Source: Alicyclobacillus sp. SP_1
Lineage (GTDB): Bacteria; Bacillota; Bacilli; Alicyclobacillales; Alicyclobacillaceae
Reading direction: 5' to 3'
Assembly (NCBI RefSeq): GCF_024706985.1
Contig: NZ_JAMCCX010000018.1
Location: 1-64,000, forward strand
DNA: 64,000 nucleotides
Shown here: in pieces, positions 32,819-56,535 of the stretch
How the letters are laid out: every line of letters begins with the position of its first letter
Numbering within the stretch: the first letter of the stretch is position 1
Position numbers and translations under genes: made by a program
Notes under the pieces: generated by a model
The model's database searches: none
What the model saw: only the letters and a program-made list of their open reading frames with translations
What the model was told of the DNA's origin: nothing

Positions 32819-32924
32819 AAATATTTTTTGTGCAACTTTGAAACATATTGCTGCTCCCTGTCGTCTCATCGGTGTACTTCTAGGCAAGACCTCGTGACCG
32901 ATGAGACGAAGGGAGAGTCTATGG

Positions 32925-35234
32925 ATGAAGCGACGGGTATATCTATCGGCAGCAGTGGCGGCATCGTTGGCGATGGGGGCGGTGTGTGCCGCGTCTCCGC
33001 CAGTAGCGCTGGCCGCAACTGCGACAAAGGCCCCCACCTCAAGAATTTCGATGAAGAAAGCGGAACAACTTGCAGAGCAGCGGGTGGCGATTCCAAAGAC
33101 ATGGGTTCTCACTCAGGCTTCGTACAATGCCAACCAAGTCTATGGCGAGAGCACATACTATTTTACTTGGCAACCGTTTTCGGATGAAAGCGACAACAGC
33201 GTATCTATGCAAAATGAATCGGTCACGGTCAACGCAACAACCGGCAGTATCGTCAGCGTATACCGTTCCAGTCCGACGAATCACTTTCAGTTTCCAATTC
33301 CGGTCAACGAAAAACAAGCAAAAGGCATTGCTCTGAGCTTGGTAAAGCGCATGTATCCGACGGTCTCGAACAAAGTTCGGTCCGTACCCCTAACACCTGT
33401 TTCTGGACCACTTTCCTATGGCATTACGTACAACTTCAATTTCGAGCGAATTAAAAACGGTATTCCGGCGCCGTTCGACGGATTGGACGTCCTCATTGGA
33501 GGTCACGGACATTTCCAAAGTGTCAATACGAATTGGACGGATGCCCACTTTCCGAGTTCCAAGCACGTTCTGTCAGAAAAACAGGCGCAAGCTATCTACA
33601 AGCAGAATCTCGGGCTGCATTTAGCCTATGAGCAAATTTTTTCTGCGTCCGGTGAAGGTCACTGGCGCCTAGTTTATAAACCGATGAAGGTTCCCAGTTT
33701 TACTTTTTGGAACTTCCAGTACAATAATGCACAATTTCCAAATCCCACGTTTGCCATTGACGCCAAGAATGGACACCTAGTCGAGTCGAACGGACAAACG
33801 CTTCATCTTCCCGCTGTTTCCACCTTGAAACCCGTCGTTCCTGGAGGGCCTTCCGTTTTGCCGGACACTCTTCACGCCAATTGGACCATGACACAGTCGT
33901 TAGAGCACGCCGAGCAGTTGCTGAACGTGCCATCAACGGTCACACCTTCGTACACGTCTCGAAGCTTGGAACACGGCAATGTAGAGTGGAACTTCTCTTG
34001 GAATCTAAGCGGAGATAGCCATGTGTATGCACAAGTGGATGCCACGCGCGGACTGGTCGTCGATGCTAGTCGCTATAACAAATCACTCCCACTGGCGCCG
34101 CTTTCTACAAAGAAGCAAAAGACGAAGGCAACGACGTCTGCTTCGAAGGCACCGCTGACCCAAGCAGAAGCCGAGAAAGTCGCCATTCGCTTTCTTCAAA
34201 AGGCTCTTCCGGAAGACACAGGGGCCATCGCTCTTGTTCCCGGAAATGCGGGAGTTCCTAATGGGAATAAAGTCGCCAATTATGACCTTGACTGGCTTGT
34301 TCATGGGATTCCCGTCGAGTCATTCAATGATCTCAGTGTCAATCGGACAACTGGACAAGTTACGCAGTATTCACTGAGTGTCCCTCGTCACATGAAAAAT
34401 TTCCCATCGCCAGAGCATGCCATTTCTCTCGACGATGCAGAACAAGTATGGCTGACGCATCGGCCTCTACAACTGGTTTATGGTAGGACGCAGATTCAGT
34501 ACAAGGTCGCCAAGACTGGCGGCAAGGTTCCTGCGTCGAGTCGAAAAATTCTCCTGCTCTATGTTCCGATGACGACAACGGGTGGAACGGGTTCGTTGGA
34601 CGCGCTGACGGGTCATTTTGTGGGCTCTGCCAACGCCAGTTCGCTCACTTCGAGTATTCGTGACCTGAAGAACGTGGAAGGGGGCGCACAAATTCGCCTA
34701 CTGGTTGAACACGGGCTTCTCAAGGTGGGGCCGCATGGGAATGTCCATCCGCATCAACCCATGACCGTCGGTGCTTTCGTAAAATTAGTGATGGGAGCCC
34801 TTGTTTCACCCTTTTCTCCGGAGAATTCCTTGTCGGTTACCGAGTTGCATCACGCGCTGTCGGGCACATCCAAATCGAATCCTGCGTATCAAACCATTCG
34901 TCAAGCGCTGGAGGAGGGCTGGTTGCCAAGCAATCGTGTGGTTCATCCGAATGCATTCATCAGCCGATGGGATGCGTCCCAATTGTTGCTGAAAATGCTC
35001 GGGGATGGTCCATTGCTCAAAGAGTCTGACATCTTCACGCTGCCGGACAGTGCCAAGCAGCAGGTCTCAAAGAACGATCGCGCTGCCGTGGCGATGGCCA
35101 TCGGGTTAAAGCTGTTCGCGCTTGACAAGAATGGCAAATTTAATCCGCAACAGCCAGTCCAAATCGACCAGGCTGCGGTTGCCGTCGTACGTTCGGCGGT
35201 CCTCATGCCGATGAGCAACAATGGAATGAATTAG
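32925..35234 (+). CDS. secreted S-layer-homology (SLH) protein with N-terminal PepSY/YpeB-like repeats
   Basis: signal peptide AAVAASLAMGAVCAASPPVALA; three C-terminal SLH-like repeats; GAAGGGAGAG SD. Confidence 0.7.
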   Translation: MKRRVYLSAAVAASLAMGAVCAASPPVALAATATKAPTSRISMKKAEQLAEQRVAIPKTWVLTQASYNANQVYGESTYYFTWQPFSDESDNSVSMQNESVTVNATTGSIVSVYRSSPTNHFQFPIPVNEKQAKGIALSLVKRMYPTVSNKVRSVPLTPVSGPLSYGITYNFNFERIKNGIPAPFDGLDVLIGGHGHFQSVNTNWTDAHFPSSKHVLSEKQAQAIYKQNLGLHLAYEQIFSASGEGHWRLVYKPMKVPSFTFWNFQYNNAQFPNPTFAIDAKNGHLVESNGQTLHLPAVSTLKPVVPGGPSVLPDTLHANWTMTQSLEHAEQLLNVPSTVTPSYTSRSLEHGNVEWNFSWNLSGDSHVYAQVDATRGLVVDASRYNKSLPLAPLSTKKQKTKATTSASKAPLTQAEAEKVAIRFLQKALPEDTGAIALVPGNAGVPNGNKVANYDLDWLVHGIPVESFNDLSVNRTTGQVTQYSLSVPRHMKNFPSPEHAISLDDAEQVWLTHRPLQLVYGRTQIQYKVAKTGGKVPASSRKILLLYVPMTTTGGTGSLDALTGHFVGSANASSLTSSIRDLKNVEGGAQIRLLVEHGLLKVGPHGNVHPHQPMTVGAFVKLVMGALVSPFSPENSLSVTELHHALSGTSKSNPAYQTIRQALEEGWLPSNRVVHPNAFISRWDASQLLLKMLGDGPLLKESDIFTLPDSAKQQVSKNDRAAVAMAIGLKLFALDKNGKFNPQQPVQIDQAAVAVVRSAVLMPMSNNGMN

Positions 35235-35499
35235 CTCGCTGTCTCCCTGTTTTCATCGCGATCGCCCGATGGCTAACTGCATAGAAGCGGTCGGGCGAAT
35301 CGCGAATGTCAACACGCGATGGGTGGAACAGGCATTGGCGAAGGAGCACAGGATTTTCATGCTACACTAAGACATGTCAGAATGAGAGACTGTGGAAAGG
35401 AGCTAGGTTCGAGTTAATTCCCCGCACAAAAAGGCACCTACCACGTTTTTTCAGCCAGGAAGACCTGGATTTGATCCGAGAATGGATTAATGAACCTAC

Positions 35500-35750
35500 A
35501 ACGACGACCTACGGAGGGCACACGCAGAGAACAAACTCGACATTCGGATGCGTAAATACTTGCGCCCAAAGCTGCTCGTGATGGATGAAGTCGGATACTG
35601 GCCATTTGGGCCGGAAGAAACCAACTCATTCTTCTAACTCGTCAGAACCCGTTATGAACACGAAAGCATTGTCTTGACAAGCAACAAAAGCTTTGCCGAA
35701 GTGGGTCAAATCAAATCCGGCGTCGACACATTTAGCTGAGCAGCTACAAA
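35500..35750 (+). pseudogene. IS21-family IstB ATPase 3' remnant with internal stop
   Basis: RKYLRPKLLVMDEVGYWPF...SFF*...RYEHESIVLTSNKSFAEVGQI matches IstB C-terminus (LLIIDELGY / RYE..S.I.TSN..F..WG); TAA interrupts. Confidence 0.6.
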
Positions 35751-35849
35751 TGACAGGTATATCTCAGGACAAATTACTCCCGATTTAAAATACTATAAAC
35801 AGTGAACTACAGGTTCTAGAGTAATATCGAACCATCACTGCAGGGTCAT

Positions 35850-37130
35850 TTATAATGACTGCAGACTTAAAATCCAATCTACCCACTTTGAAATGGTTTG
35901 AGCCCTTCTGTAGTAGGTGCTTTCTGAACTAACTCTGTATAGATTGCAATCTCTCATATGTTTGACGATGCGATCCTGGTTTAACGGATGTCCAATCTCA
36001 AAGTACTCCTTTAGAACGCGCTGAAAAATGTCATGTTCAAGGATACAAGATGCTAAACCCAGGTATTTGTTTTTATATGGTTTGCGCATAATGCCATGGC
36101 CTTTTCGTGTCAGCCGAAATCGAATGACACGATCTGTATCTTGAAACTTTTCGATGAGACCAAGATACATACCCGCCGTAGTGTAGTAATTCGTTTGGCG
36201 TTCGTCAAACGCGTAGTTCGCCGTGATATCATCTTTCTCCATATCAGTATCCACCAATATCCCAAGTAAGTCCACGACACGTTCAAAAATATCAGCCTGC
36301 GGGAACGGTAGTCGTGGCTCTCGAACAACTCTGGTGATCGATAAAATCTCAATTATGTCATCGAGCTTGATGTCCTCATGGTTGAGGACATAATCCTTTT
36401 GAAACACAAGCCGTAATGAATTGTAACGATGGGGATGGGTAAACTTATAAACGAAAAATGAGAAAACGTCATTAGAGTAGGTAAAAAATACTGGAACTAT
36501 TTCTTTGGTAAGCCTGTCGGTCCAGAGACGATATGGATAATATAATTGACGAATCAAAAAGTCGCTAGTTGACTCGTTTTTCGCCTCAATCAGCACGAAC
36601 TTCGATTCGGATTCATAGCCTGCATCGATTTCGATCTGAGATTTTGAGACGGAGATCCGATGTTCAGCAAAACCATTGCTTTTGATCAGGAAGTCAAAAT
36701 CCCTAGAAGACATGCGACCAGAGATAGTCGGATAAGCGATCTCCGCCAAGAGATGATCTACCATTCCAGAAACGTACGCACAATGAAGGGCGACGCTCTC
36801 GGAATATAAATTTGATGGTTGAATGGATGTGATGGTATCGGGGAATGCAATTGGTGTCGGTTCAATCTGTGGATTATAAGCTACGGTTTGATATGCGTCG
36901 AATTCACCAATGACATATCTGGAACGCGTGATTGGCAGAATGGCTAGACCATTAGTCTTGAAAATTTCGGGAAGATTCGTCTTGTGGTCGAATTTGCTCA
37001 TCAAACGTGGTTCTCGAACCGTCTTGATCGTTTTCGCGTCAATTTCAAACAGGCCAGTCCTGCGAACCTCACGCAATATGTTGAATCGCTGGAATAAGGC
37101 TTCCCAAGCCTCGTTGTTTTTACTCCCCAT
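35850..37130 (-). CDS. putative Type II restriction endonuclease (PD-(D/E)xK) partnered with Dam-family methyltransferase
   Basis: overlaps upstream MTase by 11 nt; candidate catalytic IEIDAGYESESKFVLIEAKN; low GC relative to window. Confidence 0.55.
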   Translation of the reverse strand: MGSKNNEAWEALFQRFNILREVRRTGLFEIDAKTIKTVREPRLMSKFDHKTNLPEIFKTNGLAILPITRSRYVIGEFDAYQTVAYNPQIEPTPIAFPDTITSIQPSNLYSESVALHCAYVSGMVDHLLAEIAYPTISGRMSSRDFDFLIKSNGFAEHRISVSKSQIEIDAGYESESKFVLIEAKNESTSDFLIRQLYYPYRLWTDRLTKEIVPVFFTYSNDVFSFFVYKFTHPHRYNSLRLVFQKDYVLNHEDIKLDDIIEILSITRVVREPRLPFPQADIFERVVDLLGILVDTDMEKDDITANYAFDERQTNYYTTAGMYLGLIEKFQDTDRVIRFRLTRKGHGIMRKPYKNKYLGLASCILEHDIFQRVLKEYFEIGHPLNQDRIVKHMRDCNLYRVSSESTYYRRAQTISKWVDWILSLQSL

Positions 37131-37965
37131 AATTCATAACGAGAATTTCATCGACTTTCCCTCGCCTCGACGAATCCGAATTAATTGCCCTACTGGCCTT
37201 GACGGTTATGATTTTATAACCCTTGTATAAATCTCTAATAAAATCAGTAGACGAGTTACTCAAGAGCACTTTGCATCCACGTTCATCAAGATCGTCAACG
37301 ACCCTCTTCAGGCGAGCCTGTTCCTCTCTACCGAAACCGTCTAAGCTGTAACCGGTGAAGTAAGCGGTATCTGAAACAGGGTCATAGGGCGGGTCTAGGT
37401 AAACAAAATCTCCTCTCTTAGCGTCAGCGACAGCCTCGGCAAAATCAGTGTTCCGAAACTTAATATCTGAAGTTGACAAATAGTGGTGGGCGGCTCGCAA
37501 TACAACTTCATTTACGATATTCGGACTCTTATAGTTTCCGAATGGAACATTAAATTGACCCTGGTTATTTACTCTGAAGAGTCCGTTATAACATGTTTTG
37601 TTCAAGTAAATCAGTCGTGAAGCGCGCTGAACGGATGACCAGGCTTTATAACCTGGTGTTCGATCTAACTCTCGAAGCGCGTAAAAGTACTCCTTCTCAT
37701 TTTTGTGTGCCGACAAATGCTTAATTAACTCGTCAATGTCATCACGGATGACTTTATATGCGGAGATCAATTCAGAATTAATATCGTTTACAACAGCCTT
37801 TTTAGGTTGAATGTCAAACAACACAGCTCCCCCACCTACGAAAGGTTCAAAGTAAGTGGTGAACTTTGGAATATATAAACGTATAGTTTCGAGCAATTGG
37901 CGTTTGCCGCCTGCCCATTTGACAAATGGCTGAAGTAATTTGTTCTTAGCCAAAATGCTAACCAC
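37120..37965 (-). CDS. DNA adenine (N6) methyltransferase, Dam/D12 class
   Basis: KWAGGKRQL, FEPFVGGGAV (motif I), DFVYLDPPYD (motif IV). Confidence 0.85.
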   Translation of the reverse strand: MVSILAKNKLLQPFVKWAGGKRQLLETIRLYIPKFTTYFEPFVGGGAVLFDIQPKKAVVNDINSELISAYKVIRDDIDELIKHLSAHKNEKEYFYALRELDRTPGYKAWSSVQRASRLIYLNKTCYNGLFRVNNQGQFNVPFGNYKSPNIVNEVVLRAAHHYLSTSDIKFRNTDFAEAVADAKRGDFVYLDPPYDPVSDTAYFTGYSLDGFGREEQARLKRVVDDLDERGCKVLLSNSSTDFIRDLYKGYKIITVKASRAINSDSSRRGKVDEILVMNYGE

Positions 37966-38289
37966 CTAATAAAACGTATGTTCGAGCCTCTACTAGTCTA
38001 CATGGAGAGTCTGGTTATTTCAACGACTTCTTCGTCCATCCAAAGCCTGCTGTGGTCGCTCACCTTGGCTGTCTGAAGCTAGGCGTTTTTTACGAAAATG
38101 TGATCACCGGGTTAGAATTGACCCAGTGACACCGGAATGAAAATGACCCATCTGTGTTGAATACCCTGATTGATAACCGTTGCATGGTGTCGAAAAGGGA
38201 ATCCAATTGTTACGAGGTGGGTCTGTGATTAGACTACAAAGTCTAGCGGCTCAAGAGAAGGGCTGGAGAGAGATTGCTAGGGAAGCTAG

Positions 38290-39250
38290 GCACTCCAAAA
38301 AAACACTATTAAGAAGCACTTTCGTGATGGGCACCCAACGGAGGTGAACCATCGTCCCAGTCGTGAAACGACTGGATGCGGTAGATAGCTGTGTCCTTGC
38401 GCTCTCCCAATCTGCCAACGACTTCCCAGTGGTTTCTCTCGAGCGCCCTGTGCTTTACCTTGTCGCACATGGCTAATGTGTTCGGTAAACGTGAGATAAA
38501 GCGAACATCGTGTTCGTGGAGCAACCGTAGGTTCTTCGACGTGACCGCCGCAGAATTCGCGGTACAGAGGATTTGGCGAAGTTTCTCTTCCGCAAGAGTG
38601 TCAGTCAACTTTACAATGGTTTGCACATTCCAGTTCTTGTCGATGAGGTTCCCGTTCTCAGGGCTGGCCAAGGAAGGGATTTCGTGTGCGGTGACCATAC
38701 CCGAAAATGATTTGTTTCAAGTCGGGCCTGTGGTCTTTTGAATAGCCCTTGAAATCCGAAAATGAGCGTCTTCCTCGTCATCCTGGTCGTTTAGGACATT
38801 CCGATAGCGGCCATGGAACGGCATGGACGTGGTATCTCCATGCAGATGGTCTAAGGGCACAGAGAGGCAAAGTCCAGCGTCGAGAATGAGGCCATAGTCA
38901 GCACACTGTCCATCTCATCCTCATGAATTGCGTTCCGGGCCCGTCCAAGAGCGTCGTTTCATTCAGAGCATCCGCCGTGACGTTCGGGCTTACACGTGAT
39001 TGGATGTCGTATTCGTCACAGGGCCCTTGAACTTTAAAAAAGGCCTTGCGGTCCGTCAGGATGTTGACCAAATAGTGCTTTGATTCGTTGGCCAGCGGAA
39101 AGTCGACAGTCGTTAGGCGCAACCCCAACCCCAACAAGCTCATCCACCTTGCCGACTCAACCGAGTCGGTCAATCATCCAGGACCAGATAGGACCTGAGC
39201 CGAGCTCCTTGTTTGTAAGATTAAGAGCATCGAGCAACTGCAAATTCTCC
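38290..39250 (-). pseudogene. IS1634/IS4-superfamily transposase remnant (multiple frameshifts)
   Basis: minus-strand translation gives ...HGDTTSMPFHG... and FSDFKGYSKDHRPDLKQIIFG (hallmark GYSKDHRPDLKQ motif) split over >=3 frames. Confidence 0.6.
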
Positions 39251-39299
39251 TTGGTACGCAACATCTAAGGGGAATATTTCGACTCAGACGAATAACTTC

Positions 39300-39584
39300 C
39301 CTACAAAAATTCACTTAGCACCTTATGTTACAGCGCGGAAGATGCGCACAGGCTATGACTTGAGGGGGTTCAACGCACAGAGTCAAGTTCGACTGAGACA
39401 CGTGTTCGAAGAGCTGGACCAGCGTGGTTGCAAGGTGCTCCTCAGCAACTCAGCCACGCCCTTCATGCGCGACCTCTATCAGAAATACACGATAGTGACG
39501 ATTGCAGCGAATCCAGCCATCAATTCCGATGCAGGAAAGCGTGGGCATGTGGAGGAATTGCTTGTCATGAATTATGTACCTTGA
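39300..39584 (+). pseudogene. 3' remnant of a second Dam-family methyltransferase gene
   Basis: about 60% identical to the last ~90 aa of the MTase at 37120-37965 (..PY..TA..TGYDLRGF...RGCKVLLSNS...LVMNY); N-terminal two-thirds absent, abuts IS1634 remnant. Confidence 0.6.
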
Positions 39585-39708
39585 GGGCTCCATACCGAGG
39601 AGACGTCTGCGGGCGTCTCCTCTTCATCAGAACGGTCTGGTCGGCTACTGGAAGTCGGTTGGGCAAGCGTGTACGCACTTCAATACATAGTTGCACTGGG
39701 GCTACGGT

Positions 39709-40950
39709 CTATAGTTTCAGGATATTCACATTTTCAACATACTGATTGGAGTCCGGTAGTGCGTTCGGGTCGGTAGCTTGGTCCGTTCCGAGTTCTGCCT
39801 CTTTCTGTTCTATCAATCCATTGTTGCTACGTAATTTCATGCGGATGGCAGCACACTGTGCTTCCGAACCGAGGATCACCCCTTCATTGTCGACATAATG
39901 GACGGATGCGAGCAACAGTTCTGGATTTACGTCGTCTGCAATCTCTAAAACTCCTCCTACCACAAGGGTCATTCCACCTTCAGATTGAGAAAGTTCCAAT
40001 TCACTCGTGGTCAACTTCCCTTCATCATCGACTCTTACCAATTTTCCGCGAATAAGCACAATTTTCGCGTCAAACTCACATAAACGCTGCACGGTACTCT
40101 GGACTTCTGGGTGGCAGAAAATTTGACCAGTCGCAAGTAGTTTCGACACGGATGTCTCTAGTGTTGCGGAAGATACATCTGCACAGACGTGCACATCGCC
40201 ATTGACGTACAGAATTTGACGGGAATGTCGGGAGAGCAGAGCACCATCTAAGTCTGTGCTTTCCGGAAAATAGATGGCAGTTTCAGGAACGACTGAAAAA
40301 TTGGCGTGTTGAGGATTTTGAATGCAGTCCGCCAAGACTTCAAGGATATCCTCTCGAATCGCGACGCGCCCATGAAACTCGACGAAATCAATTTTTTCTC
40401 TGAGAATCGCGGTGTCGACATGTGCGAGCAGTTGCGACTTTCCGACGGCCACAATTCTCGAACCAGGTTTCAGGAGGCGTACGAAGACCGCATCAAAAGT
40501 GGCATTGTGCAGCAGAGTCGTTGCCCCGTTCGCGTAGGTATTCATGGCACCGTTTAAATGGTGAATTTTCGACCTGAGTGCTCCTTCCAAGCGTTTTGGG
40601 CACACCACGCTACCATTGACTAGGAGAGCACCAATTTGTTCAGAAAGAGCTTTCTCTGTAACATCGGGCTGTATGACAAGAGTGCCGTTAATCATTATAT
40701 TGCTGGGCTCTGAAGGAGGCGCATCAGTTGCACTAATTTCGCAACGGCCGTTGACCATCCGAATGTTAGAAATACCCTCCACAGTTTGGTTGATGTTACG
40801 CATAGAAATCTTGCTCAGTGCGGGTCCTAATTCTGGCTTAGAGAGAAGCAAATTGACGTTTTCGATGGACACGACATCTTTGAGGCTAGTCTCGTCCGTT
40901 GCCGATAAGTCCAATACGTTAATATTTCGAAGGATACGACCCATAATCAA
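39709..40950 (-). CDS. sigma-factor-coupled soluble repeat protein (candidate non-canonical anti-sigma / effector)
   Basis: ATGA overlap with ECF sigma stop; no TM, no ZAS/RsgI motif; recurrent x-NG-x-x-x-[VI] strand-like motifs. Confidence 0.5.
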   Translation of the reverse strand: MIMGRILRNINVLDLSATDETSLKDVVSIENVNLLLSKPELGPALSKISMRNINQTVEGISNIRMVNGRCEISATDAPPSEPSNIMINGTLVIQPDVTEKALSEQIGALLVNGSVVCPKRLEGALRSKIHHLNGAMNTYANGATTLLHNATFDAVFVRLLKPGSRIVAVGKSQLLAHVDTAILREKIDFVEFHGRVAIREDILEVLADCIQNPQHANFSVVPETAIYFPESTDLDGALLSRHSRQILYVNGDVHVCADVSSATLETSVSKLLATGQIFCHPEVQSTVQRLCEFDAKIVLIRGKLVRVDDEGKLTTSELELSQSEGGMTLVVGGVLEIADDVNPELLLASVHYVDNEGVILGSEAQCAAIRMKLRSNNGLIEQKEAELGTDQATDPNALPDSNQYVENVNILKL

Positions 40951-41489
40951 ACATCTCCTCCAGTTCCGTATTCACCGTTCGTCATTTCGGTTTGAAGCAT
41001 CTGAATGGCTCGACGTACTTGGCTACGCACCGTTGAGGGGTTTGTCCCTGTACGCTTTGCTATCTCGCGGCTATTGAGTCCGTTCCAATATCGTTGTACG
41101 AGAATAGCACGCAGTTCTGCCGGTAGGCGGTTTAATAGGTCGGTCCATTCAAGATGATTGGATAAATCGGAAACACCTGCTTCCATCGGGAAATGTGAAG
41201 CGTAGGGGTAATCGACGATAAATCGCGTTCGGCGGTCTTCATCTCTCTTTACATTTCGGAGGACCGTGAAGAGCCAGCCCCGTAGGTGCCCATCGTCCAT
41301 TTCGGCAAGTCGCGATAGATGGCGGAGAGCACGAACGAATGTTTCTTGAACGAGATCGTCTGCTCTATCCGGATCTCTAGTCAGTGCCAGCGCGAATCTT
41401 TGCAGAGACGGCCTATGAAGCTCATAAAGTTCCTCGAAAGTCGTGCTCTCACCCCCTTTCCGTGAACCGCCGTTAACAGGTACCGACAT
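40947..41489 (-). CDS. ECF-type RNA polymerase sigma-70 factor
   Basis: region 2 DLVQETFVRALRHL, region 4 LNSREIAKRTGTNPSTVRSQVRRA. Confidence 0.85.
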   Translation of the reverse strand: MSVPVNGGSRKGGESTTFEELYELHRPSLQRFALALTRDPDRADDLVQETFVRALRHLSRLAEMDDGHLRGWLFTVLRNVKRDEDRRTRFIVDYPYASHFPMEAGVSDLSNHLEWTDLLNRLPAELRAILVQRYWNGLNSREIAKRTGTNPSTVRSQVRRAIQMLQTEMTNGEYGTGGDV

Positions 41490-41832
41490 CTAGACAACGA
41501 ACGAGATTGACAAAGTGTTGTTTGGGACACAGTCGTAAGTTGAAAATTCTCGAATCGCGACGCGTCGAGGCTAGGCTAGCCTACGGGCGACAACACATGA
41601 CATTCAGAATATCGGTTGGCGACGGAATCCATAACCCATAGGTTGCAAATCTCACCCTTGAATTGTCCCTGCCTTTCCCTTAGTCTGAAACCAGTTATGG
41701 TAAAAGCGGAGGTTGCGGCTCACACTAGGCGGACGGATTGCACGAAGTGAACAGTGTGCTGTGTGCATCGGTCAACTGTCTCTTTCGAATGACTATGGAG
41801 GGGTACACTCCGTTTGTGAAAGGACCACTGTG

Positions 41833-42738
41833 ATGAAGGTAATTTTGACTCCTCGAGCACCATTCGACTTTCTGCAGATGTTGCGACGGCCGATGTCGCG
41901 ACCATCTTCGTTAATCCTCATTGACGCGAACTCCGGAACGTATACGAGGGCGGTGCGCCTTAGGTCTCGGGTTTGTCCTGTGACGGTGCGAAGTGTTGGT
42001 TCGGTAGACGGTCCCGAACTTTGTCTGGAATATCCGGATGACCTGGCGGAAGACGAACGGGATGAATTGCTCCAGCGGATGACGCAAATGTTTTCTTTGG
42101 AGCGAAATCTGCAAGATTTTTATGAGACCGTTTCGGTGTCCAAAGAATGGGCAGGATTGATTCAGCGGTTGTACGGTGTTCGGCCCATTCAAGATGCGGA
42201 TTTATTTGAATCGATGGTACGTACCATCATCGGCCAGCAACTCAATCTTTCGTTTGCGGCAACGCTGATGGAGCGACTGGTGCAGTTGGGCGATGAACGC
42301 GTGGTTTGGAAGCAGCAAACCTTGCCGGTGTTTCCGAGTGCAAAGACGGTGGCGGAATGGACGTATCCGCGCTTGCGGGAACTGGCGTTTAGCCAGCGTA
42401 AAGCAGAGTACGTTATTGATTTTGCGCGCCATGTTGCGAGTGGAGCGATAGATTTGGAGAAGCTCCGTGACTTGCCCGATGAGGATGTGTACGAAGTCCT
42501 GATGCCGCTACGCGGTGTAGGACGGTGGACCGTGGAATGTTTTTTGCTGTTTGGAATGGGGCGCACCGACATTCTTCCAGCAGCTGACATTGGAATCCAG
42601 AATGCAGTGCAGAGGCTGTATCACATGGCGGATCGCCCAAAAGAAGCGGACATTCGCCAGATTGCATCGGTGTGGGCTCCTTGGCGTAGCTATGCTACCT
42701 ATTATCTGTGGCAAAGCCTCCTCAGGGATGAGAATTGA
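41833..42738 (+). CDS. alkA: DNA-3-methyladenine glycosylase II (AlkA, HhH-GPD)
   Basis: HhH-GPD motif LRGVGRWTVECFLLFGMGRTDILPAADIG; start at ATG after AAAGGA. Confidence 0.8.
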   Translation: MKVILTPRAPFDFLQMLRRPMSRPSSLILIDANSGTYTRAVRLRSRVCPVTVRSVGSVDGPELCLEYPDDLAEDERDELLQRMTQMFSLERNLQDFYETVSVSKEWAGLIQRLYGVRPIQDADLFESMVRTIIGQQLNLSFAATLMERLVQLGDERVVWKQQTLPVFPSAKTVAEWTYPRLRELAFSQRKAEYVIDFARHVASGAIDLEKLRDLPDEDVYEVLMPLRGVGRWTVECFLLFGMGRTDILPAADIGIQNAVQRLYHMADRPKEADIRQIASVWAPWRSYATYYLWQSLLRDEN

Positions 42739-51113: not shown

Positions 51114-51815
51114 TTGATAGTGGATGACCAGGCGATGATTCGTCAAGGCCTCGCTTACATGATTAGTGCGCAGAGCGACCTGAATGTTGTCGGCCAAGCC
51201 GCGGACGGGGATGAGGCTGTCATGGAAGCGGCGGAAAGGCGTCCTGACGTCATCCTGATGGATATTCGCATGCCGAAACAAAATGGCATTGCAGCGACAG
51301 GTAGGATTGTAACTAGCGGATCGCCTGCGAAAATTGTGTTGCTGACAACGTTTGACGACGAACAAAACCTGTTTGATGGCATTCGGGCAGGCGCGGTGGG
51401 GTATTTGCTCAAAGATGCGGATGTGCACGAACTGCTCGATGCCATCCGTCGGGCGGCGCGCGGCGAGGCAGTGTATCGCACCGCCAGTGCAGCGCGGGCA
51501 TTAGCCCGTGCAGTCTCTCACCAATCGCCGCAAGAAGTCAAAGAAGTGGAGACGAGGGGGGTGCCACTGGGGCCAGGTGTGCAACCAAAGAAGTCTGTGA
51601 CTGCATCGGAGGGGTTGGCTGAGCCATTGACCGAGCGTGAAATCGAGGTCTTGCAGCAGATGGCGTATGGCAAACGCAACATGGAGATTGCCACCACGCT
51701 CTCCGTATCGGAAGGGACGGTAAAGACGCACGTTCATCGTATTTTGCAAAAACTTGGAGTTGAGGACCGCACGCAGGCTGTCGTCTTTGCCCTGCGCGAT
51801 GGTCTGGTGAATTGA
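51114..51815 (+). CDS. response regulator, NarL/LuxR family
   Basis: REC (VLIVDDQAMIRQGL...D..MPKQNG) + C-terminal LuxR HTH (LTEREIEVLQQMAYGKRNMEIATTLSVSEGTVKTHVHRILQKL). Confidence 0.8.
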   Translation: MIVDDQAMIRQGLAYMISAQSDLNVVGQAADGDEAVMEAAERRPDVILMDIRMPKQNGIAATGRIVTSGSPAKIVLLTTFDDEQNLFDGIRAGAVGYLLKDADVHELLDAIRRAARGEAVYRTASAARALARAVSHQSPQEVKEVETRGVPLGPGVQPKKSVTASEGLAEPLTEREIEVLQQMAYGKRNMEIATTLSVSEGTVKTHVHRILQKLGVEDRTQAVVFALRDGLVN

Positions 51816-51862
51816 GGCAGTCGTCGTGCCAGTCATGGGGCCTCTTTGAAGGGTGGATAAAA

Positions 51863-52630
51863 ATGGAACAGACTTTACGGGGCGAAATCAACTATCGGAT
51901 CATCGTCATCGAAGATGATCCGCAAGTGGCAAAGCTTTTGGGACGGCAACTGAGTCGCTATGGCTACGGTGTGAGCTTGTGTCAAGATTTTGAGCATGTC
52001 GATACAGTGGTGAGGACGGAAAACCCAGACCTAGTCTTGTTGGATATTAACCTGCCATTTTACGATGGGTTTTATTGGTGTCGACGAATACGCCGCTTTT
52101 CCACAGTACCTGTAATTTACATTTCATCGCGCGACGGCGATATGGACCAAGTATTTGGCTTAGATAATGGTGGCGATGAGTTTATCACCAAACCATTTCA
52201 ATTAGAAGTATTGCTTGCCAAAAGCAAGGCGTTGTTGCGACGTACATGTGGGGAATATGCGGTGGGTAGGACTTCACCACGGGAAGTTTACTCTCTTCGA
52301 ACGATGAAGTTGGATGTACGTAGAGCTACAGTGGATAATAAAGGGAAATCTAGTTTCTTGAGTAAAACAGAATTGGAACTTTTGCGCAGACTACTGGATG
52401 CGCAAGGAGCGGTGGTGTCCCGCAATGCCCTGCTGGAGGCTATTTGGGACGACACGCATTTCGTGGATGATAATACGTTGACTGTCAATGTGACTCGTCT
52501 GAGGCAAAAGCTTGAGAACGTAGGTATTCACGACGCGATTGTTACGCTTCGCGGGGTAGGATATCGTTTTGCACTATTTGACGAGTGTTCGCCTCCGGAG
52601 CCGGGACAAGATGATGAGAGCGTCCAATGA
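51863..52630 (+). CDS. response regulator, OmpR/PhoB family (BceR-like)
   Basis: REC IIVIEDDPQV...DINLPFYDG; winged-helix LTKTELELLRRLL...TLTVNVTRLRQKL. Confidence 0.8.
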   Translation: MEQTLRGEINYRIIVIEDDPQVAKLLGRQLSRYGYGVSLCQDFEHVDTVVRTENPDLVLLDINLPFYDGFYWCRRIRRFSTVPVIYISSRDGDMDQVFGLDNGGDEFITKPFQLEVLLAKSKALLRRTCGEYAVGRTSPREVYSLRTMKLDVRRATVDNKGKSSFLSKTELELLRRLLDAQGAVVSRNALLEAIWDDTHFVDDNTLTVNVTRLRQKLENVGIHDAIVTLRGVGYRFALFDECSPPEPGQDDESVQ

Positions 52631-53724
52631 ATCATAATCCGTTGCTTCTCTTTATACGGGACATGTGGCAGACTGTGCTTTTTTTCTGCATTGGCTATGC
52701 GCTGATTGTGGCGACAATTTTATTGTCTTTTCGGACATTGGTTCGTCAAAGTAATTTTATGTATGCCTATGTGCTCGGACTCACTATGCTGGTCGTGTTT
52801 TTGGTTTTAGAGTACGTTCGTCGCCATCGCTTCTATACCGAATTGGCGTATCGATTGAAGAAGGAGGCTGTTATGTCTGACGCGGTCACCATGCCAGTGA
52901 CTGGAACACACGACCAACGCTTATTCGTTCAGCTTCTGCACAGGTATCACCAAGAGCACGTTCGCCAACTGGATGTCCTTATAGAGCGACAGAGAGTGTA
53001 TGAACTGTTTGGAACGCGATTTGCGCATCAAATGAAGACGCCACTGACGGTCATTCAACTTCTTGAAGATGAGATGCGCCGGGAGTTCGCGTGGTCGACA
53101 GATATGGCGGAAATCGTGAGTCGACTCTCGGAAGAACGACTGAGACTGGACACTTCCGTGAACCTGATGTTGAACACTATGCGTCTGGGTTCGTTCTCTG
53201 TTGATGTCCACATTGAAGAAGTCGACCTGCAAGAGTTAGTTCGCGAAGCTGTGAACGAGCATAAAAGTCAGTGGATTCGAAGAGCAATTTATCCACGATT
53301 GGATGGGGAAGATTGCCCTGTAGTTGTGAAATCCGATCGGAAATGGCTTTTGTTTATTATGGATCAGATTATTCGCAATGCCCTTCAATACGGTTATCGT
53401 GTGGACGAAGACGGAATACCGGCTGAAGTGGCCAATTCATTTGTCATACAAATTAAAAAACGTGACCATTATGCGGTATTGGTCTTTTCAGATAACGGGA
53501 TAGGGATTCCAGCGAGGGACTTGGCACATGTCTTCGAACCCTTTTATACGGGGTCTAATGGTCGGTCACATTCTAGGGCAACTGGCATGGGGCTGTATAT
53601 CGTCAAACAGGTAGCCGAGCGCCTCGGGCATGACATTCGAATTGAGTCGAACGAAGGGCGAGGCACCACTGTGTTTGTGAGCATTTCCCTAGAAGATTTT
53701 CTGCGTCCACTGCTTACAACGTGA
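52627..53724 (+). CDS. intramembrane-sensing histidine kinase (BceS-like)
   Basis: 2 TM, no extracellular domain; H-box FAHQMKTPLT; HATPase (DNGIGIP, GMGLYIV); ATGA overlap with RR. Confidence 0.75.
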   Translation: MNHNPLLLFIRDMWQTVLFFCIGYALIVATILLSFRTLVRQSNFMYAYVLGLTMLVVFLVLEYVRRHRFYTELAYRLKKEAVMSDAVTMPVTGTHDQRLFVQLLHRYHQEHVRQLDVLIERQRVYELFGTRFAHQMKTPLTVIQLLEDEMRREFAWSTDMAEIVSRLSEERLRLDTSVNLMLNTMRLGSFSVDVHIEEVDLQELVREAVNEHKSQWIRRAIYPRLDGEDCPVVVKSDRKWLLFIMDQIIRNALQYGYRVDEDGIPAEVANSFVIQIKKRDHYAVLVFSDNGIGIPARDLAHVFEPFYTGSNGRSHSRATGMGLYIVKQVAERLGHDIRIESNEGRGTTVFVSISLEDFLRPLLTT

Positions 53725-53736
53725 AAAGTTGCAAAA

Positions 53737-53766
53737 TTGTAAGGGTAATAAGAGGTTTTGTAAGGG
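53737..53766. promoter_or_regulatory. direct repeat TTGTAAGGG x2 spaced 21 bp: candidate BceR-like binding site
   Basis: exact 9-bp repeats at 53737-53745 and 53758-53766 just upstream of bceA-like gene. Confidence 0.4.
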
Positions 53767-53809
53767 ACAGCGAAGGAACTTCACGTATCGATGTGAGACA
53801 TTCGACTAA

Positions 53810-54601
53810 GTGAAAGATGTCTGCGTAAGTGAGGGATGCCGATTGAATGTATTGCGTGCGAAGGGTTTGACCAAAGTTTACGGAACCAAAAATCCTGGTT
53901 CCTCTAAGACAGCGTTGAACGGGATTGACCTTGTTGTGAGGTCTAGTGAATTTGTTGGCATTATGGGTCCTTCCGGAAGTGGGAAAACAACGTTGCTCAA
54001 TTTACTCGCAGGTTTAGATCAGGCTACGAGTGGTGAACTTTGGATTCAAGATACTAATATGTCCAAATGTACACCAGAACAAATGGCTGTGCTTCGCCGG
54101 AAAAGTATAGGGTTTGTGTTTCAAGATTACAATTTGCTAGACACGCTCACACTATTTGAAAATGTGACACTGCCGCTAGCCTTAGATGGTCAACGAGGGA
54201 AAAAAGTCAATCAGAGAGCTGAGGAATTGTTAGAATATCTTGGATTGAGAGACGTCATGCGCCAATATCCATATGAAGTTTCCGGCGGACAGCAACAGCG
54301 AACTGCGGTTGCGCGGGCATTAATTCATAATCCAGCGTTGATTTTGGCGGATGAGCCTACGGGCAATTTAGACTCGGGATCGGCTCGGTCCTTACTAGAG
54401 CTGCTTCAGCGGTTAAACCAAGAAAACGGAACCTCTATACTCTTGGTTACACATGACCCGTTTTCTGCTAGTTACTGCCAAAGAATCGTGTTTATCCGTG
54501 ATGGTAGTGTGTTTGCAAACTTAGAAAAAGCAGACTCGAGAGAATCTTTCTTCCGAGAAATTTTAGATACGCTTGGCGTGCTGGAGGGGACGCAGCAATG
54601 A
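53810..54601 (+). CDS. ABC transporter ATP-binding protein (BceA/MacB-type)
   Basis: GPSGSGKTT, LSGGQQQR, ILADEPTGNLD. Confidence 0.85.
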   Translation: MKDVCVSEGCRLNVLRAKGLTKVYGTKNPGSSKTALNGIDLVVRSSEFVGIMGPSGSGKTTLLNLLAGLDQATSGELWIQDTNMSKCTPEQMAVLRRKSIGFVFQDYNLLDTLTLFENVTLPLALDGQRGKKVNQRAEELLEYLGLRDVMRQYPYEVSGGQQQRTAVARALIHNPALILADEPTGNLDSGSARSLLELLQRLNQENGTSILLVTHDPFSASYCQRIVFIRDGSVFANLEKADSRESFFREILDTLGVLEGTQQ

Positions 54602-56535
54602 TGTGGCTTAGCTTTGCGTTCAAAAATAGTGTGCGGAGTCTGCGCCGCTACGTAAATTACCTTGCTGCATGCTCATTCGCTGTCATGATATTTTATATGT
54701 TTTCTGCGTTTGTATTAAACCCTGCAGTTCACCATGGATACATGACACATACAGCTCAGCAGGTGCTTGCATCATGCCAATTCATTGTGATAGTTTTCGC
54801 CGCTTTCTTCATCTTCTTCTTTCACAGCGGTCTGTTACGACTGCGCAGCAAAGAATTTGGACTACTTTTAACACTGGGCATCATCCCCAAGCAGATGGGA
54901 CGATGGATATTTTTCGAGAGCTTGATACTCGGTTTCGTATCGATCGTTTCTGGAATGATTTTAGGCCTCTTGTTCTCCAAGTTGTTTCTATTGACTATGG
55001 CAGCCGCTCTACAATTACCACACGTAATTCCATTCGCAGTGCCGCCGGCTTCTGTGCTACTGACAGCAGTATTTTTCGGAGCTTTATTTCTGTGCGAAGC
55101 CTATTTGGCTTCGCGGCGTGTGATGGGATTGTCGCCGACAGCGCTCTTCGTGGAACAGAGGTCAGCTCAAAAGGTGCCAAGGTATTCGGTTTGGTGGATT
55201 GTGATAGGGTTGACTTGTCTTGGAGCAGGATATTATATGGCTGTTTCGGAAAGTCGTGAATTTATCAGAGACTTGATACCTATCCTCATTTTGACAAGCG
55301 CAGGGACATACTTTCTCTACAGTCAAGTACTGATCATGATTCTCACGGTGCTACGGCGTCGTGCGCTGAGCGGGGTCAGTCTCTTGGTTGTAAGTCGATT
55401 GATGTATCGCCTTAAAGACAACGCCCGGGTATTAACAGTGGTCACGATGTTGACCGCGGTCGTTCTGACGAGTATGGGCTCCGTGCTAGGTCTGCAGCAA
55501 ATCGTGGGGGAAAACTCTCTGAGGGTCAACCCGATGAATGTTATGATAGCCAGTAATGCGGCTAACTCTACACACTTCTCAGCCACTCGTTTGCGTCATA
55601 TATTAAACACTCACGGAGTCCGAATCGCGGCAGAAAATACGTCGTCCATCTTCGTTGCGACACTTCGCACAATGTCTGGACAGTGGGTGGGGGTTCAAGT
55701 TATGTCCCTGTCCACATACAATTCGCTACGAGCCGAGTTTCTTACCGACTCGCGGTTGAAAAAATATATTCCTGCTCTTCCGAGGATTCGTACGGCTCAC
55801 GCAGAATTGATGGTACCATATCCCCTTATTGTGTCCAAAAGACTTACGCCTATCCGTGCAGAGCTAAAGATAGGTCGCGCGGTCGAAACGATCCACATCC
55901 AGAAACAGTCGAATGTTCGAGTTGTGGACGAATCGAACCAGCTTCCTGATTTTGAACTTGTGGTCTCGAACGAGGACTACAGAAAATGGGAACTTGATAT
56001 TCCCAAGTCCATGAAATGGACAATTTATAGCGCGATGTTGTCTCATTGGGTAAAATCACGCTCCGCGGTGCGTCAGATACAAGACGCTGTTGCTTCCAGG
56101 AACCTGGCTGTGTCGGCAACCGTGACGGGTTTCAAACAAACACAAGAATTACTGTCCGTCATGCTGTTCTCAGGTTTCTTCATCAGCACTCTGTTCTTTC
56201 TTACTGCTGGCGGTTCTATTTATTTTCGACTGGATTCACGACTCGAAGAGGACCGCAAACAGTTTCGCACATTTCAAAGGTTGGGTTTACAACGAAAAGA
56301 AATTGGTCGCTTGCTTTCCATAGAGTTACTCTTACTGTTCTTTGTTCCTGTCGGTGTTGCGCTAGTGCACAGTACAGTCGCTATCATCGACCTCGGGCAT
56401 CTTGTGCTACTGAGTGCAGGTGAATGGGGAATTCTCGCCATAGTGGCCGCAGTATATTGCATCCTCATGTTCATCTTCTTTGGAGTTTCGAGGATAAAGT
56501 ATCTTCAACGCGCTATGAATCAAACCATGGGTTGA
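54598..56535 (+). CDS. ABC transporter permease, FtsX-like 10-TM (BceB-type)
   Basis: 645 aa, two FtsX modules separated by large extracellular loop; ATGA overlap. Confidence 0.8.
   Translation: MMWLSFAFKNSVRSLRRYVNYLAACSFAVMIFYMFSAFVLNPAVHHGYMTHTAQQVLASCQFIVIVFAAFFIFFFHSGLLRLRSKEFGLLLTLGIIPKQMGRWIFFESLILGFVSIVSGMILGLLFSKLFLLTMAAALQLPHVIPFAVPPASVLLTAVFFGALFLCEAYLASRRVMGLSPTALFVEQRSAQKVPRYSVWWIVIGLTCLGAGYYMAVSESREFIRDLIPILILTSAGTYFLYSQVLIMILTVLRRRALSGVSLLVVSRLMYRLKDNARVLTVVTMLTAVVLTSMGSVLGLQQIVGENSLRVNPMNVMIASNAANSTHFSATRLRHILNTHGVRIAAENTSSIFVATLRTMSGQWVGVQVMSLSTYNSLRAEFLTDSRLKKYIPALPRIRTAHAELMVPYPLIVSKRLTPIRAELKIGRAVETIHIQKQSNVRVVDESNQLPDFELVVSNEDYRKWELDIPKSMKWTIYSAMLSHWVKSRSAVRQIQDAVASRNLAVSATVTGFKQTQELLSVMLFSGFFISTLFFLTAGGSIYFRLDSRLEEDRKQFRTFQRLGLQRKEIGRLLSIELLLLFFVPVGVALVHSTVAIIDLGHLVLLSAGEWGILAIVAAVYCILMFIFFGVSRIKYLQRAMNQTMG

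What the first reader, a model, noticed from the sequence alone, without database searches (positions are those of the whole stretch)
35500..39600. Low-GC mobile island with decayed IS21 and IS1634 elements flanking a Dam-type R-M module
Between the SLH gene and the sigma operon the composition drops. The region contains (i) an IstB C-terminal fragment with an in-frame TAA, (ii) an MTase/REase pair on the minus strand, (iii) a transposase whose GYSKDHRPDLKQ hallmark is split across frames, and (iv) a 3' Dam fragment. This is a horizontally acquired defence islet that has since been eroded, and is a candidate hotspot for other accessory functions.
Basis: partly seen in the sequence, partly recalled or inferred. 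Interest (0 to 1): 0.65.

Follow-up and report, generated by a model that had tools for sequence, protein, structure and literature searches.

The report
Recent GATC restriction-modification cassette among old debris
An intact, recently imported two-gene restriction-modification operon (probably cutting GATC) sits among dead insertion-sequence pieces and the stump of an older methylase gene of the same kind; this is an ordinary type of bacterial defence locus with a readable history.

Summary
All four sequence observations are real at about the stated coordinates. The window is from Alicyclobacillus sp. SP_1.

- **Not one eroded island.** The low-GC block covers only 35620-38030 (GC 0.42 against 0.505 outside it). 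That is just the operon: a Dam methylase (37120-37965, minus strand) overlapping by 11 nt a 426-aa endonuclease (35850-37130, minus strand). Both genes are intact.
- **Methylase.** It is DpnM-like and keeps all seven EcoDam GATC-contact residues.
- **Endonuclease.** It has DUF6996/DUF6997/DUF7226 domains and matches PADLOC REase_II. It carries an invariant D-x12-E-A-K motif and a C-terminal winged helix.
- **Conserved pairing.** 74 of 81 genomic loci have a Dam homologue within 50 nt upstream on the same strand. The cassette is usually lower in GC than its host and also occurs on plasmids.
- **GATC counts.** GATC is strongly depleted in the host DNA (72 observed, 240 expected) but not in the operon (12 observed, 12 expected). 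The IS1634 remnant and the dam stump have host-like GC and no GATC, so they look like older residents.
- **Best reading.** A recent cassette landed in a scar that holds the stump of an earlier dam of the same subfamily.

GATC specificity and the order of events are inferred, not shown. This is a new member of a known kind, of low to moderate interest.

The parts
35494..35739 (+). IS21-family IstB helper-ATPase pseudogene fragment. It is an internal piece with an in-frame TAA at 35635-35637 and a stop at 35737-35739. GC 0.49.
   Evidence: Pfam IstB_IS21 positions 134-202 of 238, E=1.2e-18. NCBIfam IS21_help_AAA E=2.7e-18. Sequence. GC.
35620..38030 (.). Low-GC block (GC 0.42). It is the compositionally foreign segment and equals the R-M operon plus short flanks.
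   Evidence: Two-boundary likelihood segmentation of 33000-42000, log-likelihood gain 24.6. GC profile. GATC in the R-M genes 35850-37965: 12 observed, 12.0 expected, against O/E 0.30 in the host DNA.
35850..37130 (-). Type II restriction endonuclease candidate, 426 aa. Domains DUF6996-DUF6997-DUF7226. Putative PD-(D/E)XK motif D169...E182-A-K184, with a C-terminal winged helix.
37120..37965 (-). Dam-family (DpnM-like) N6-adenine DNA methyltransferase, 277-281 aa. Its stop overlaps the endonuclease start by 11 nt. DPPY motif at residues 191-194.
   Evidence: PF02086 E=1.4e-70. TIGR00571 307.8 bits. Best solved relative is DpnM 2dpm, E=6e-83. EcoDam contact residues are conserved.
37995..38023 (-). 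Possible sigma-70-type promoter for the M-R operon (TTGAAA-17-TAGACT). Weak evidence.
   Evidence: Consensus scan, 9 of 12 matches. The number of such sites in the region is not above shuffles.
38312..39264 (-). IS1634-family transposase pseudogene remnant. It keeps the N-terminal half only, with several frameshifts and stops. The start codon is at 39264-39262 and GYSKDHRPDLKQ is at 38712-38747. The DDE half is missing. GC 0.516 and no GATC.
   Evidence: NF033559 positions 97-250 of 483, E=1.1e-21. tblastn matches to annotated IS1634 transposases on plasmids. Coordinates. Composition.
39348..39584 (+). 3' stump of an older Dam methylase gene (last ~78 codons plus stop). GC 0.52, GC3 0.605, no GATC. 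It is 61% identical to the resident Dam and 75% identical to a Pelotomaculum MAG Dam that sits in an M-R cassette of the same type.
   Evidence: TIGR00571 positions 193-267 of 267. BLASTP against the resident Dam. tblastn against L026, L037 and L005. Annotated as a 91-aa 'DNA adenine methylase' in Alicyclobacillus sp. SP_1.

Best explanation
The locus has two layers.

**Layer 1 (recent).** This is a complete, probably active, orthodox Type II restriction-modification operon. A DpnM-like Dam methylase methylates the adenine of GATC. The translationally coupled 426-aa endonuclease cuts unmethylated GATC in incoming DNA. The endonuclease has an N-terminal domain, a PD-(D/E)XK-type core and a C-terminal winged helix. 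This roughly 2.4-kb cassette came by horizontal transfer from a lower-GC source.

**Layer 2 (old).**
- The last third of an earlier dam gene of the same subfamily, on the opposite strand. It abuts the 5' end of an IS1634-family element.
- That IS1634 element, whose own 3' (DDE) half is gone.
- On the other side of the cassette, an internal IstB fragment of an IS21-family element.

**Most likely history.** The lineage lived for a long time with GATC restriction, which depleted GATC genome-wide. A resident dam was hit by an IS1634 element. A later rearrangement or insertion brought in the new cassette. That event removed the rest of the IS and the 5' two-thirds of the old dam.

**Shown:** gene identities, intactness, the composition boundaries, the GATC distribution and the conserved M-R pairing.

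**Inferred:** GATC specificity of the endonuclease, activity of the system, and the order of events.
For: **Identity of the genes**
- Pfam, NCBIfam and PADLOC matches.
- DpnM of the GATC-specific DpnII system is the best solved relative of the methylase, E=6e-83.
- EcoDam residues that read or intercalate GATC are K9, Y119, N120, L122, R124, P134 and Y138 (PMC4417163). All are conserved here as K16, Y126, N127, L129, R131, P141 and Y145.

**The 426-aa protein as a nuclease partner**
- D169, A183 and K184 are invariant and E182 is near-invariant in 20 homologues.
- In 74 of 81 genomic loci a Dam homologue lies within 50 nt upstream on the same strand.

**Foreign origin of the cassette**
- The GC block at 35620-38030.
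- GC3 is 0.43-0.45, the lowest or near-lowest among the long ORFs of the window.
- The R-M genes hold 12 GATC. Only 2.6 are expected at the host rate (Poisson P=1.6e-5), and their own Markov expectation is 12.0.
- The family is lower in GC than its flanks by more than 3 points in 46 of 69 loci. It spans Bacillota, cyanobacteria, Bacteroidota, Akkermansia and an ANME-1 MAG.
- It occurs on 23 plasmids.

**Long GATC-restriction history of the host**
- GATC O/E is 0.33 in the window and 0.30 outside the island. No other 4-base palindrome falls below 0.69.
- Published work links site avoidance to long R-M residence and to lost R-M systems (PMC4687349).

**Old-resident status of the debris**
- Host-like GC, and 0 GATC in 1.3 kb where 4.7 are expected.

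**The stump is not a copy of the live dam**
- 61% identity to the resident Dam against 75% to a Pelotomaculum cassette Dam.
Against: - No methylome or cleavage data exist. GATC specificity rests on the methylase alone.
- Across the 61 carrier loci long enough to score, GATC is only moderately avoided (median O/E 0.76). GGCC is avoided more. Carrier-wide avoidance therefore does not prove the specificity.
- The cassette itself is not GATC-depleted. This means that no recent donor kept it for long, or that it is not GATC-specific.
- The old dam stump is followed by only 124 bp before the next gene. No trace of a partner endonuclease or of the dam 5' part was found. It may have been an orphan methylase rather than part of an R-M system.
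- Host GATC depletion could come from another system elsewhere in the genome, outside this window.
- No IS ends, target duplications or an empty site could be defined, so the order of events is a reconstruction.
- The nuclease fold match is weak (Foldseek E=8.5e-3).
Confidence: 0.68

Rival explanations
1. The whole 35.5-39.6 kb stretch is one composite mobile island acquired in a single event and eroded afterwards. It would comprise the IS21 piece, the R-M pair, the IS1634 piece and the dam stump.
For: - The pieces are contiguous.
- An independent Logan contig (L001, SRR32752771) spans 35380-39376 as one block at 99.9% identity.
- IS debris on both sides is what a composite element would leave.
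Against: - Composition is not uniform. Only 35620-38030 is low-GC.
- GATC is at expectation in the R-M genes (12 observed, 12.0 expected). It is absent from the IS1634 remnant plus stump (0 observed, 4.7 expected), as in the host.
- The two IS fragments belong to different families. They are both internal fragments without ends, so they cannot have acted as a composite transposon in their present form.
- The R-M genes are not eroded.
Confidence: 0.2
2. The R-M pair is real, but its specificity is not GATC. Alternatively, the host's GATC depletion is caused by a different system elsewhere in the genome, such as an MboI/DpnII-type or DpnI-type enzyme. In either case the depletion, the stump and the new cassette are unrelated.
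For: - The endonuclease is not a DpnII/MboI-family protein; it has no PF04556 match.
- GATC avoidance among the 61 scored carrier loci is modest (median 0.76). It is absent in cyanobacterial carriers (about 1.0).
- The cassette's own GATC count is at expectation.
Against: - The methylase scores 308 bits on the Dam subfamily model.
- It is about half identical to DpnM over its full length.
- It keeps all seven EcoDam GATC-contact residues.
- 52% of carrier loci fall at or below the published avoidance threshold of 0.78. About 50% was reported for orthodox Type II systems in general (PMC4687349).
Confidence: 0.17
3. The 426-aa protein is not a nuclease. RefSeq often names it 'translation elongation factor'. 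On this view the Dam is an orphan or regulatory methylase.
For: - Source annotations call many members 'translation elongation factor'.
- No NCBIfam match and no solved homologue exist.
- All three Pfam domains are DUFs.
Against: - A full-length match to a PADLOC Type II REase model, E=8.8e-97.
- Other source annotations say 'type II restriction enzyme'.
- A conserved D...E-A-K motif.
- Tight, conserved operon linkage with a Dam methylase in 74 of 81 loci.
- No Pfam, NCBIfam or solved-structure match to a translation factor.
Confidence: 0.03

Closest known systems
DpnII restriction-modification system of Streptococcus pneumoniae (DpnM methylase; GATC)
   Same: The methylase is a close homologue of DpnM: E=6e-83 over residues 7-279. 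Both are orthodox Type II systems with separate methylase and endonuclease genes. The predicted site, GATC, is the same.
   Different: The endonuclease belongs to another family (DUF6996/DUF6997/DUF7226) and has no DpnII/MboI PF04556 match. No second, single-strand methylase (DpnA-like) is present in the operon.
Escherichia coli Dam (EcoDam)
   Same: Same methylase family. All seven DNA-contact and intercalating residues are conserved.
   Different: EcoDam is an orphan methylase used for mismatch repair and replication control. It scores below the EcoDam equivalog cutoff here (203 against 441 bits). The gene here is operon-linked to a nuclease.
Dam + DUF6997-type endonuclease cassettes in other bacteria (e.g. 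Alicyclobacillus acidoterrestris BJYW01000029.1; Parageobacillus, Bacillus, Microcoleus; plasmids of Macrococcoides and Staphylococcus)
   Same: Same two genes. In 74 of 81 genome loci the order is the same, with the genes overlapping or nearly so. The endonuclease is 46-67% identical and the methylase 55-70% identical.
   Different: In A. acidoterrestris the cassette has host-like GC (0.506 against 0.523) and few GATC (3 observed, 8.3 expected). There it looks long-resident. Here it is compositionally foreign and sits among IS debris.
IS21 family (IstA/IstB) and IS1634 family insertion sequences
   Same: Fragments match the IstB helper ATPase and the IS1634 transposase, including the GYSKDHRPDLKQ motif.
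   Different: Both are internal, non-functional fragments. There is no IstA, no DDE half of the IS1634 transposase, and no recognisable terminal repeats or target duplications.

Membership tests
Dam family N6-adenine DNA methyltransferase (PF02086 / TIGR00571) | Profile score above the curated cutoffs over the full length | tested here: met
   PF02086 238 bits (cutoff 22), profile positions 1-253 of 253. TIGR00571 307.8 bits (cutoff 114.85).
Dam family N6-adenine DNA methyltransferase (PF02086 / TIGR00571) | Catalytic DPPY motif and AdoMet-binding FxGxG motif | tested here: met
   DPPY at residues 191-194. EPFVGGGAV lies near the N-terminus.
Dam family N6-adenine DNA methyltransferase (PF02086 / TIGR00571) | GATC-reading residues of EcoDam (K9, Y119, N120, L122, R124, P134, Y138) | tested here: met
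   All are conserved, as K16, Y126, N127, L129, R131, P141 and Y145. Based on the alignment to 2g1p/2ore and on PMC4417163.
Dam family N6-adenine DNA methyltransferase (PF02086 / TIGR00571) | m6A methylation of GATC in vivo | not testable with these tools
   Needs a SMRT or nanopore methylome, or DpnI/MboI digestion of genomic DNA.
Orthodox Type II restriction-modification system | Separate, adjacent methylase and endonuclease genes, with linkage conserved across genomes | tested here: met
   The two genes overlap by 11 nt here. A Dam homologue lies within 50 nt upstream on the same strand in 74 of 81 loci.
Orthodox Type II restriction-modification system | Endonuclease with a nuclease catalytic core (PD-(D/E)XK or other) | tested here: inconclusive
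Orthodox Type II restriction-modification system | Site-specific cleavage blocked by the cognate methylation | not testable with these tools
   A biochemical assay is required.
DpnII/MboI endonuclease family (PF04556) | Match to the DpnII family profile | tested here: not met
   A Pfam scan at E<=0.01 returned only DUF6996, DUF6997 and DUF7226.
IS21 family insertion sequence | istA transposase plus istB helper, bounded by terminal inverted repeats | tested here: not met
   Only IstB profile positions 134-202 of 238 are present, and they are interrupted by a stop. No IstA-like sequence or repeats were found in the flanks.
IS1634 family insertion sequence | Full-length DDE transposase (NF033559) with terminal inverted repeats and a target duplication | tested here: not met
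   Only profile positions 97-250 of 483 match, at 77 bits against a cutoff of 100. The sequence has frameshifts and stops. Nothing transposase-like remains in 37966-38311. The IS ends could not be defined because no close intact relative was found.
Classical genomic island (integrase-mediated) | Compositional deviation from the host | tested here: met
   The low-GC block at 35620-38030 and a GATC content unlike the host's.
Classical genomic island (integrase-mediated) | Integrase gene, tRNA or other attachment site, and flanking direct repeats | tested here: not met
   There is no tRNA in the window. No recombinase match was found in the six-frame pieces of 35235-35860 and 37960-38320. Only short, chance-level repeats are present.

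The most novel reading that the evidence does not exclude
The locus may record an in-place succession of two isospecific (GATC) Dam-type restriction-modification modules. On this reading, a resident module could be lost without post-segregational killing because an incoming cassette of the same methylation specificity took over protection at the same site. It would be a natural example of competitive displacement between R-M systems that recognise the same sequence. The host's extreme GATC depletion (O/E 0.30) would be the footprint of the earlier module.
Probability: 0.3. Interest if true: 0.45.

Novelty: new member of a known kind. Interest (0 to 1): 0.25.

Why it matters
- **Practical.** If the system is active, it predicts that Alicyclobacillus sp. 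SP_1 will restrict DNA that is unmethylated at GATC. DNA prepared in a dam+ E. coli host should then transform better. This is worth knowing for genetics in this spoilage and acidophile genus.
- **Annotation.** The endonuclease family has over 5,000 database relatives and occurs in several phyla and on plasmids. It has only DUF domains and no solved structure, and RefSeq often labels it 'translation elongation factor'. Its constant pairing with DpnM-like methylases argues for relabelling it as a Type II endonuclease.
- **Evolution.** A GATC-depleted host, a GATC-rich newcomer and GATC-free old debris lie within 4 kb. This shows how site counts can separate layers of different age inside one 'island'. 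None of this is unexpected for R-M biology.

Tried and rejected
- **Donor or sister copies in plasmids and phages.** Megablast of 35200-39800 against plasmids found nothing. The endonuclease has no phage matches.
- **Synteny test with sister genomes.**
  - The right-flank protein (39709-40950) has only five homologues.
  - The nearest (54% identity) has unrelated neighbours.
  - Exact-sequence look-ups of my ORF calls for the flanking proteins and the methylase were not on record. The likely reason is that the annotated start codons differ from mine.
  - No empty-site comparison was therefore possible.
- **Homologues of the dam stump.** The word-indexed search returned only the stump itself and one 67% fragment.
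- **Intact IS1634 relatives to define the IS end.** The metagenome scan gave one relative at 29% identity. Plasmid matches are at most 34% identical. This was a dead end.
- **Further gene remnants.** Six-frame pieces of 35235-35860 and 37960-38320 gave no Pfam match even at E<=10. I suspected that 'LPRFFSQEDLDLIREW' (about 35440-35490) was a tyrosine-recombinase fragment, but found no support.
- **Remnant of a second endonuclease or of the dam 5' part.** None was found at E<=5.
- **Conserved non-coding flanks of the cassette in 81 loci.** None were found.
- **Literature.** There is nothing on DUF6996, DUF6997 or DUF7226, and nothing useful on named GATC isoschizomers.
- **AFDB fold library.** It was not available.
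- **Carrier-wide GATC avoidance as a test of specificity.** It was not decisive: median O/E is 0.76, and GGCC is lower.


Full report
**Source and overall layout.** The 426-aa protein encoded at 35850-37130 is identical to WP_374985605.1 of Alicyclobacillus sp. SP_1, on a 64,613-bp contig. From left to right the region holds these features:

| Coordinates | Strand | Feature |
|---|---|---|
| 32901-35234 | + | YcdB/YcdC-repeat protein with a sub-threshold SLH match |
| 35494-35736 | + | IstB fragment |
| 35850-37130 | - | 426-aa endonuclease candidate |
| 37120-37965 | - | Dam methylase |
| 38312-39264 | - | IS1634 transposase remnant |
| 39348-39584 | + | dam 3' stump |
| 39709-40950 | - | 413-aa protein with no domain match |
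| 40947-41489 | - | ECF sigma factor |

**Checking the observation.**
- GC falls to 0.39-0.46 across about 35500-38250.
- The IstB fragment matches Pfam IstB_IS21 positions 134-202 of 238 (E=1.2e-18) and NCBIfam IS21_help_AAA. It has an in-frame TAA at 35635-35637. It is an internal fragment and lacks both ends of the protein.
- The IS1634 remnant carries GYSKDHRPDLKQ at 38712-38747 on the minus strand. The motif is whole in one frame, but the segments on either side lie in other frames.
- A frame-stitched translation of that remnant matches NF033559 (IS1634 family transposase) positions 97-250 of 483 (E=1.1e-21). It also matches annotated IS1634 transposases on plasmids.
- The transposase start codon is at 39264 and the reading frames end at 38312. 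The DDE half is absent, and nothing recognisable lies in 37966-38311.
- The dam stump matches the last 75 positions of TIGR00571.

**The live module: methylase.** It scores 308 bits on the Dam subfamily model.
- Its best solved relative is DpnM, the methylase of the GATC-specific DpnII system, at E=6e-83 over the full length. E. coli Dam comes next.
- Structural work on EcoDam names these residues: R124, L122 and P134, Y119 (intercalation), N120, and K9 and Y138 (first base pair) (PMC4417163).
- All seven align to identical residues here: K16, Y126, N127, L129, R131, P141 and Y145.
- This is the main basis for predicting GATC methylation.

**The live module: endonuclease.** The methylase stop overlaps the start of the 426-aa gene by 11 nt.
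- The protein has Pfam domains DUF6996, DUF6997 and DUF7226. It has no NCBIfam match and no solved homologue by sequence.
- It matches a PADLOC Type II REase model end to end (E=8.8e-97).
- Sources name its relatives either 'type II restriction enzyme' or 'translation elongation factor'.
- Twenty homologues share invariant D169, A183 and K184 and near-invariant E182. This is a D-x12-E-A-K arrangement typical of PD-(D/E)XK nucleases.
- An AlphaFold model built on that alignment is confident, with mean pLDDT 88.9.
- Foldseek gives only a weak match of the core to a Cas4-family nuclease (E=8.5e-3).
- The nuclease assignment is therefore well supported by sequence and context. The fold search did not confirm it.

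**How general the pairing is.** A scan of one genome per species returned 80 loci. Adding the A. acidoterrestris locus gives 81.
- In 74 of the 81, a Dam homologue (55-70% identical) lies within 50 nt upstream on the same strand.
- Carriers include Bacillota, filamentous cyanobacteria, Bacteroidota, Akkermansia and an ANME-1 archaeal MAG.
- The cassette is lower in GC than its flanks by more than three points in 46 of 69 loci. It is higher in 2.
- The endonuclease family is on 23 plasmids, nine of them typed as conjugative. It is in no phage record.
- This is a widely transferred two-gene cassette.

**What is foreign and what is old.** A two-boundary likelihood segmentation of 33-42 kb puts the low-GC block at 35620-38030. 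GC is 0.42 inside against 0.505 outside, with a log-likelihood gain of 24.6. That block is the operon with short flanks.

| Segment | GC | GATC observed | GATC expected (Markov) |
|---|---|---|---|
| Whole window | - | 87 | 260 (O/E 0.33) |
| Window outside the island | 0.533 | 72 | 239.9 (O/E 0.30) |
| R-M genes 35850-37965 | 0.423 | 12 | 12.0 |
| IstB fragment 35494-35740 | 0.49 | not counted separately | - |
| IS1634 remnant 38290-39330 | 0.506 | 0 | 3.9 |
| dam stump 39331-39584 | 0.528 | 0 | 0.8 |

- One search, using slightly different boundaries, gives GC 0.516 for the IS1634 remnant and 0.52 for the stump.
- No other 4-base palindrome in the window falls below O/E 0.69.
- At the host rate the R-M genes would hold only 2.6 GATC, so 12 is a strong excess (Poisson P=1.6e-5).
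- Every 2-kb bin of the window has 0-5 GATC except 36001-38000, which has 11.
- Published analysis shows that avoidance of a Type II site grows with how long the system has resided in the genome. It can also persist as a trace of a lost system (PMC4687349).
- The simplest reading is that the host has long been under GATC restriction, the IS1634 remnant and dam stump are old residents, and the operon is a recent arrival.
- In A. acidoterrestris the homologous cassette looks long-resident. Its GC is 0.506 against 0.523 in the flanks, and it holds 3 GATC where 8.3 are expected. The flank O/E there is 0.45.

**The stump.** It is 61% identical to the resident Dam over 76 residues, so it is not a recent duplicate.
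- It is 75% identical to the Dam of a Pelotomaculum MAG, which sits directly upstream of an endonuclease of this same family.
- Reliable homology starts at TGYDL (39348). That is about 80 bp beyond the IS1634 transposase start on the other strand. This fits an IS insertion into dam, but I could not define the IS end.
- No remains of the dam 5' two-thirds or of a second endonuclease were found.
- Only 124 bp separate the stump from the next gene. The old dam may have been an orphan, or its partner may have been lost completely.

**Mechanism and history.**
- Shown: an intact M-R operon of a conserved, mobile type; its compositional foreignness; host GATC depletion; and host-like, GATC-free debris on one side.
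- Inferred: that the operon is active; that the endonuclease cuts GATC; and that the sequence of events was resident dam, then IS1634 insertion, then a rearrangement that brought in the cassette and removed the IS 3' half and the dam 5' part.
- The IstB fragment has a near-host GC (0.49) and its history is unresolved.
- An independent sample (Logan contig L001) has the same block at 99.9% identity, with four substitutions: two intergenic, one silent in the endonuclease gene, and one D-to-E change in Dam. The arrangement is therefore not an assembly artefact.

**Limits.**
- No closely related genome without the block was available.
- Carrier-wide GATC avoidance is moderate. The median O/E is 0.76, and 52% of loci are at or below 0.78. 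That is similar to the roughly 50% reported for orthodox systems in general. GGCC is avoided more.
- The window covers only 64 kb of the genome, so another GATC system elsewhere cannot be excluded.

**Verdict.** The locus is an ordinary kind of thing: a horizontally acquired Type II R-M cassette in a scar of IS activity. Its layered history is unusually legible, and there is a possible, unproven case of one Dam-type module succeeding another at the same site.

Noticed in passing
window 39709-40950 (-): The 413-aa protein downstream of the ECF sigma factor is presumably its anti-sigma partner. It has no significant Pfam, NCBIfam or PADLOC match (one sub-threshold Pfam RHH_8 hit, E=0.0018, below the gathering score). 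It has only five homologues (best 54% identity) among 5.8 billion proteins.
   Followed up: partly
RefSeq/UniRef names of P0013, P0022, P0032 and others; plasmid NZ_CP046365.1 16484-17791: Many members of the DUF6996/DUF6997/DUF7226 endonuclease family are annotated 'translation elongation factor'. Others in the same clusters are called 'type II restriction enzyme'. This looks like a propagated misannotation.
   Followed up: partly
L031 10001-11290 (ANME-1 'Candidatus Methanophagaceae' MAG PQXB01000001.1): An archaeal MAG carries the same Dam + endonuclease cassette. Cassette GC is 0.31 against 0.53 in the flanks, which suggests cross-domain transfer or a binning error.
   Followed up: no
L025 (Clostridium sp. 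19966) and L041 (Bacillota MAG OH_PDB_31): GATC is almost absent from about 20 kb around the cassette: 1 observed against 23.7 expected, and 2 against 41.4. There are 0 GATC in the cassettes themselves. This is the pattern expected for very long residence.
   Followed up: no
L007, L076, L078, L083: These loci have endonuclease homologues with no Dam homologue detected nearby (tblastn E<=1e-10). In L078 (Metabacillus malikii) the flanks still have GATC O/E 0.29. On plasmid pMiCAN82b the methylase is divergently oriented rather than upstream.
   Followed up: no
window, whole: AGCT is the second most depleted 4-base palindrome (136 observed, 196 expected, O/E 0.69). This may be the trace of another R-M specificity, AluI-type.
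   Followed up: no
window 51812-56535 (+): A second stretch of lower GC (about 0.47) encodes a response regulator, a histidine kinase, an ABC ATPase and a large FtsX-type permease. This is a BceAB-like peptide-resistance layout. Nothing unusual was seen.
   Followed up: partly
L001 ends = window 35380 and 39376: The independent Logan contig carrying this block stops inside the unassigned 35235-35493 stretch and about 30 bp into the dam stump. The assembly graph may branch there because of repeats or strain variation at those points.
   Followed up: no
window 35306-35493 (+): An unassigned 260-bp stretch lies between the YcdB/SLH-like gene and the IstB fragment. It contains an ORF with 'LPRFFSQEDLDLIREW', which is reminiscent of a recombinase linker. 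It has no family match at E<=10.
   Followed up: yes
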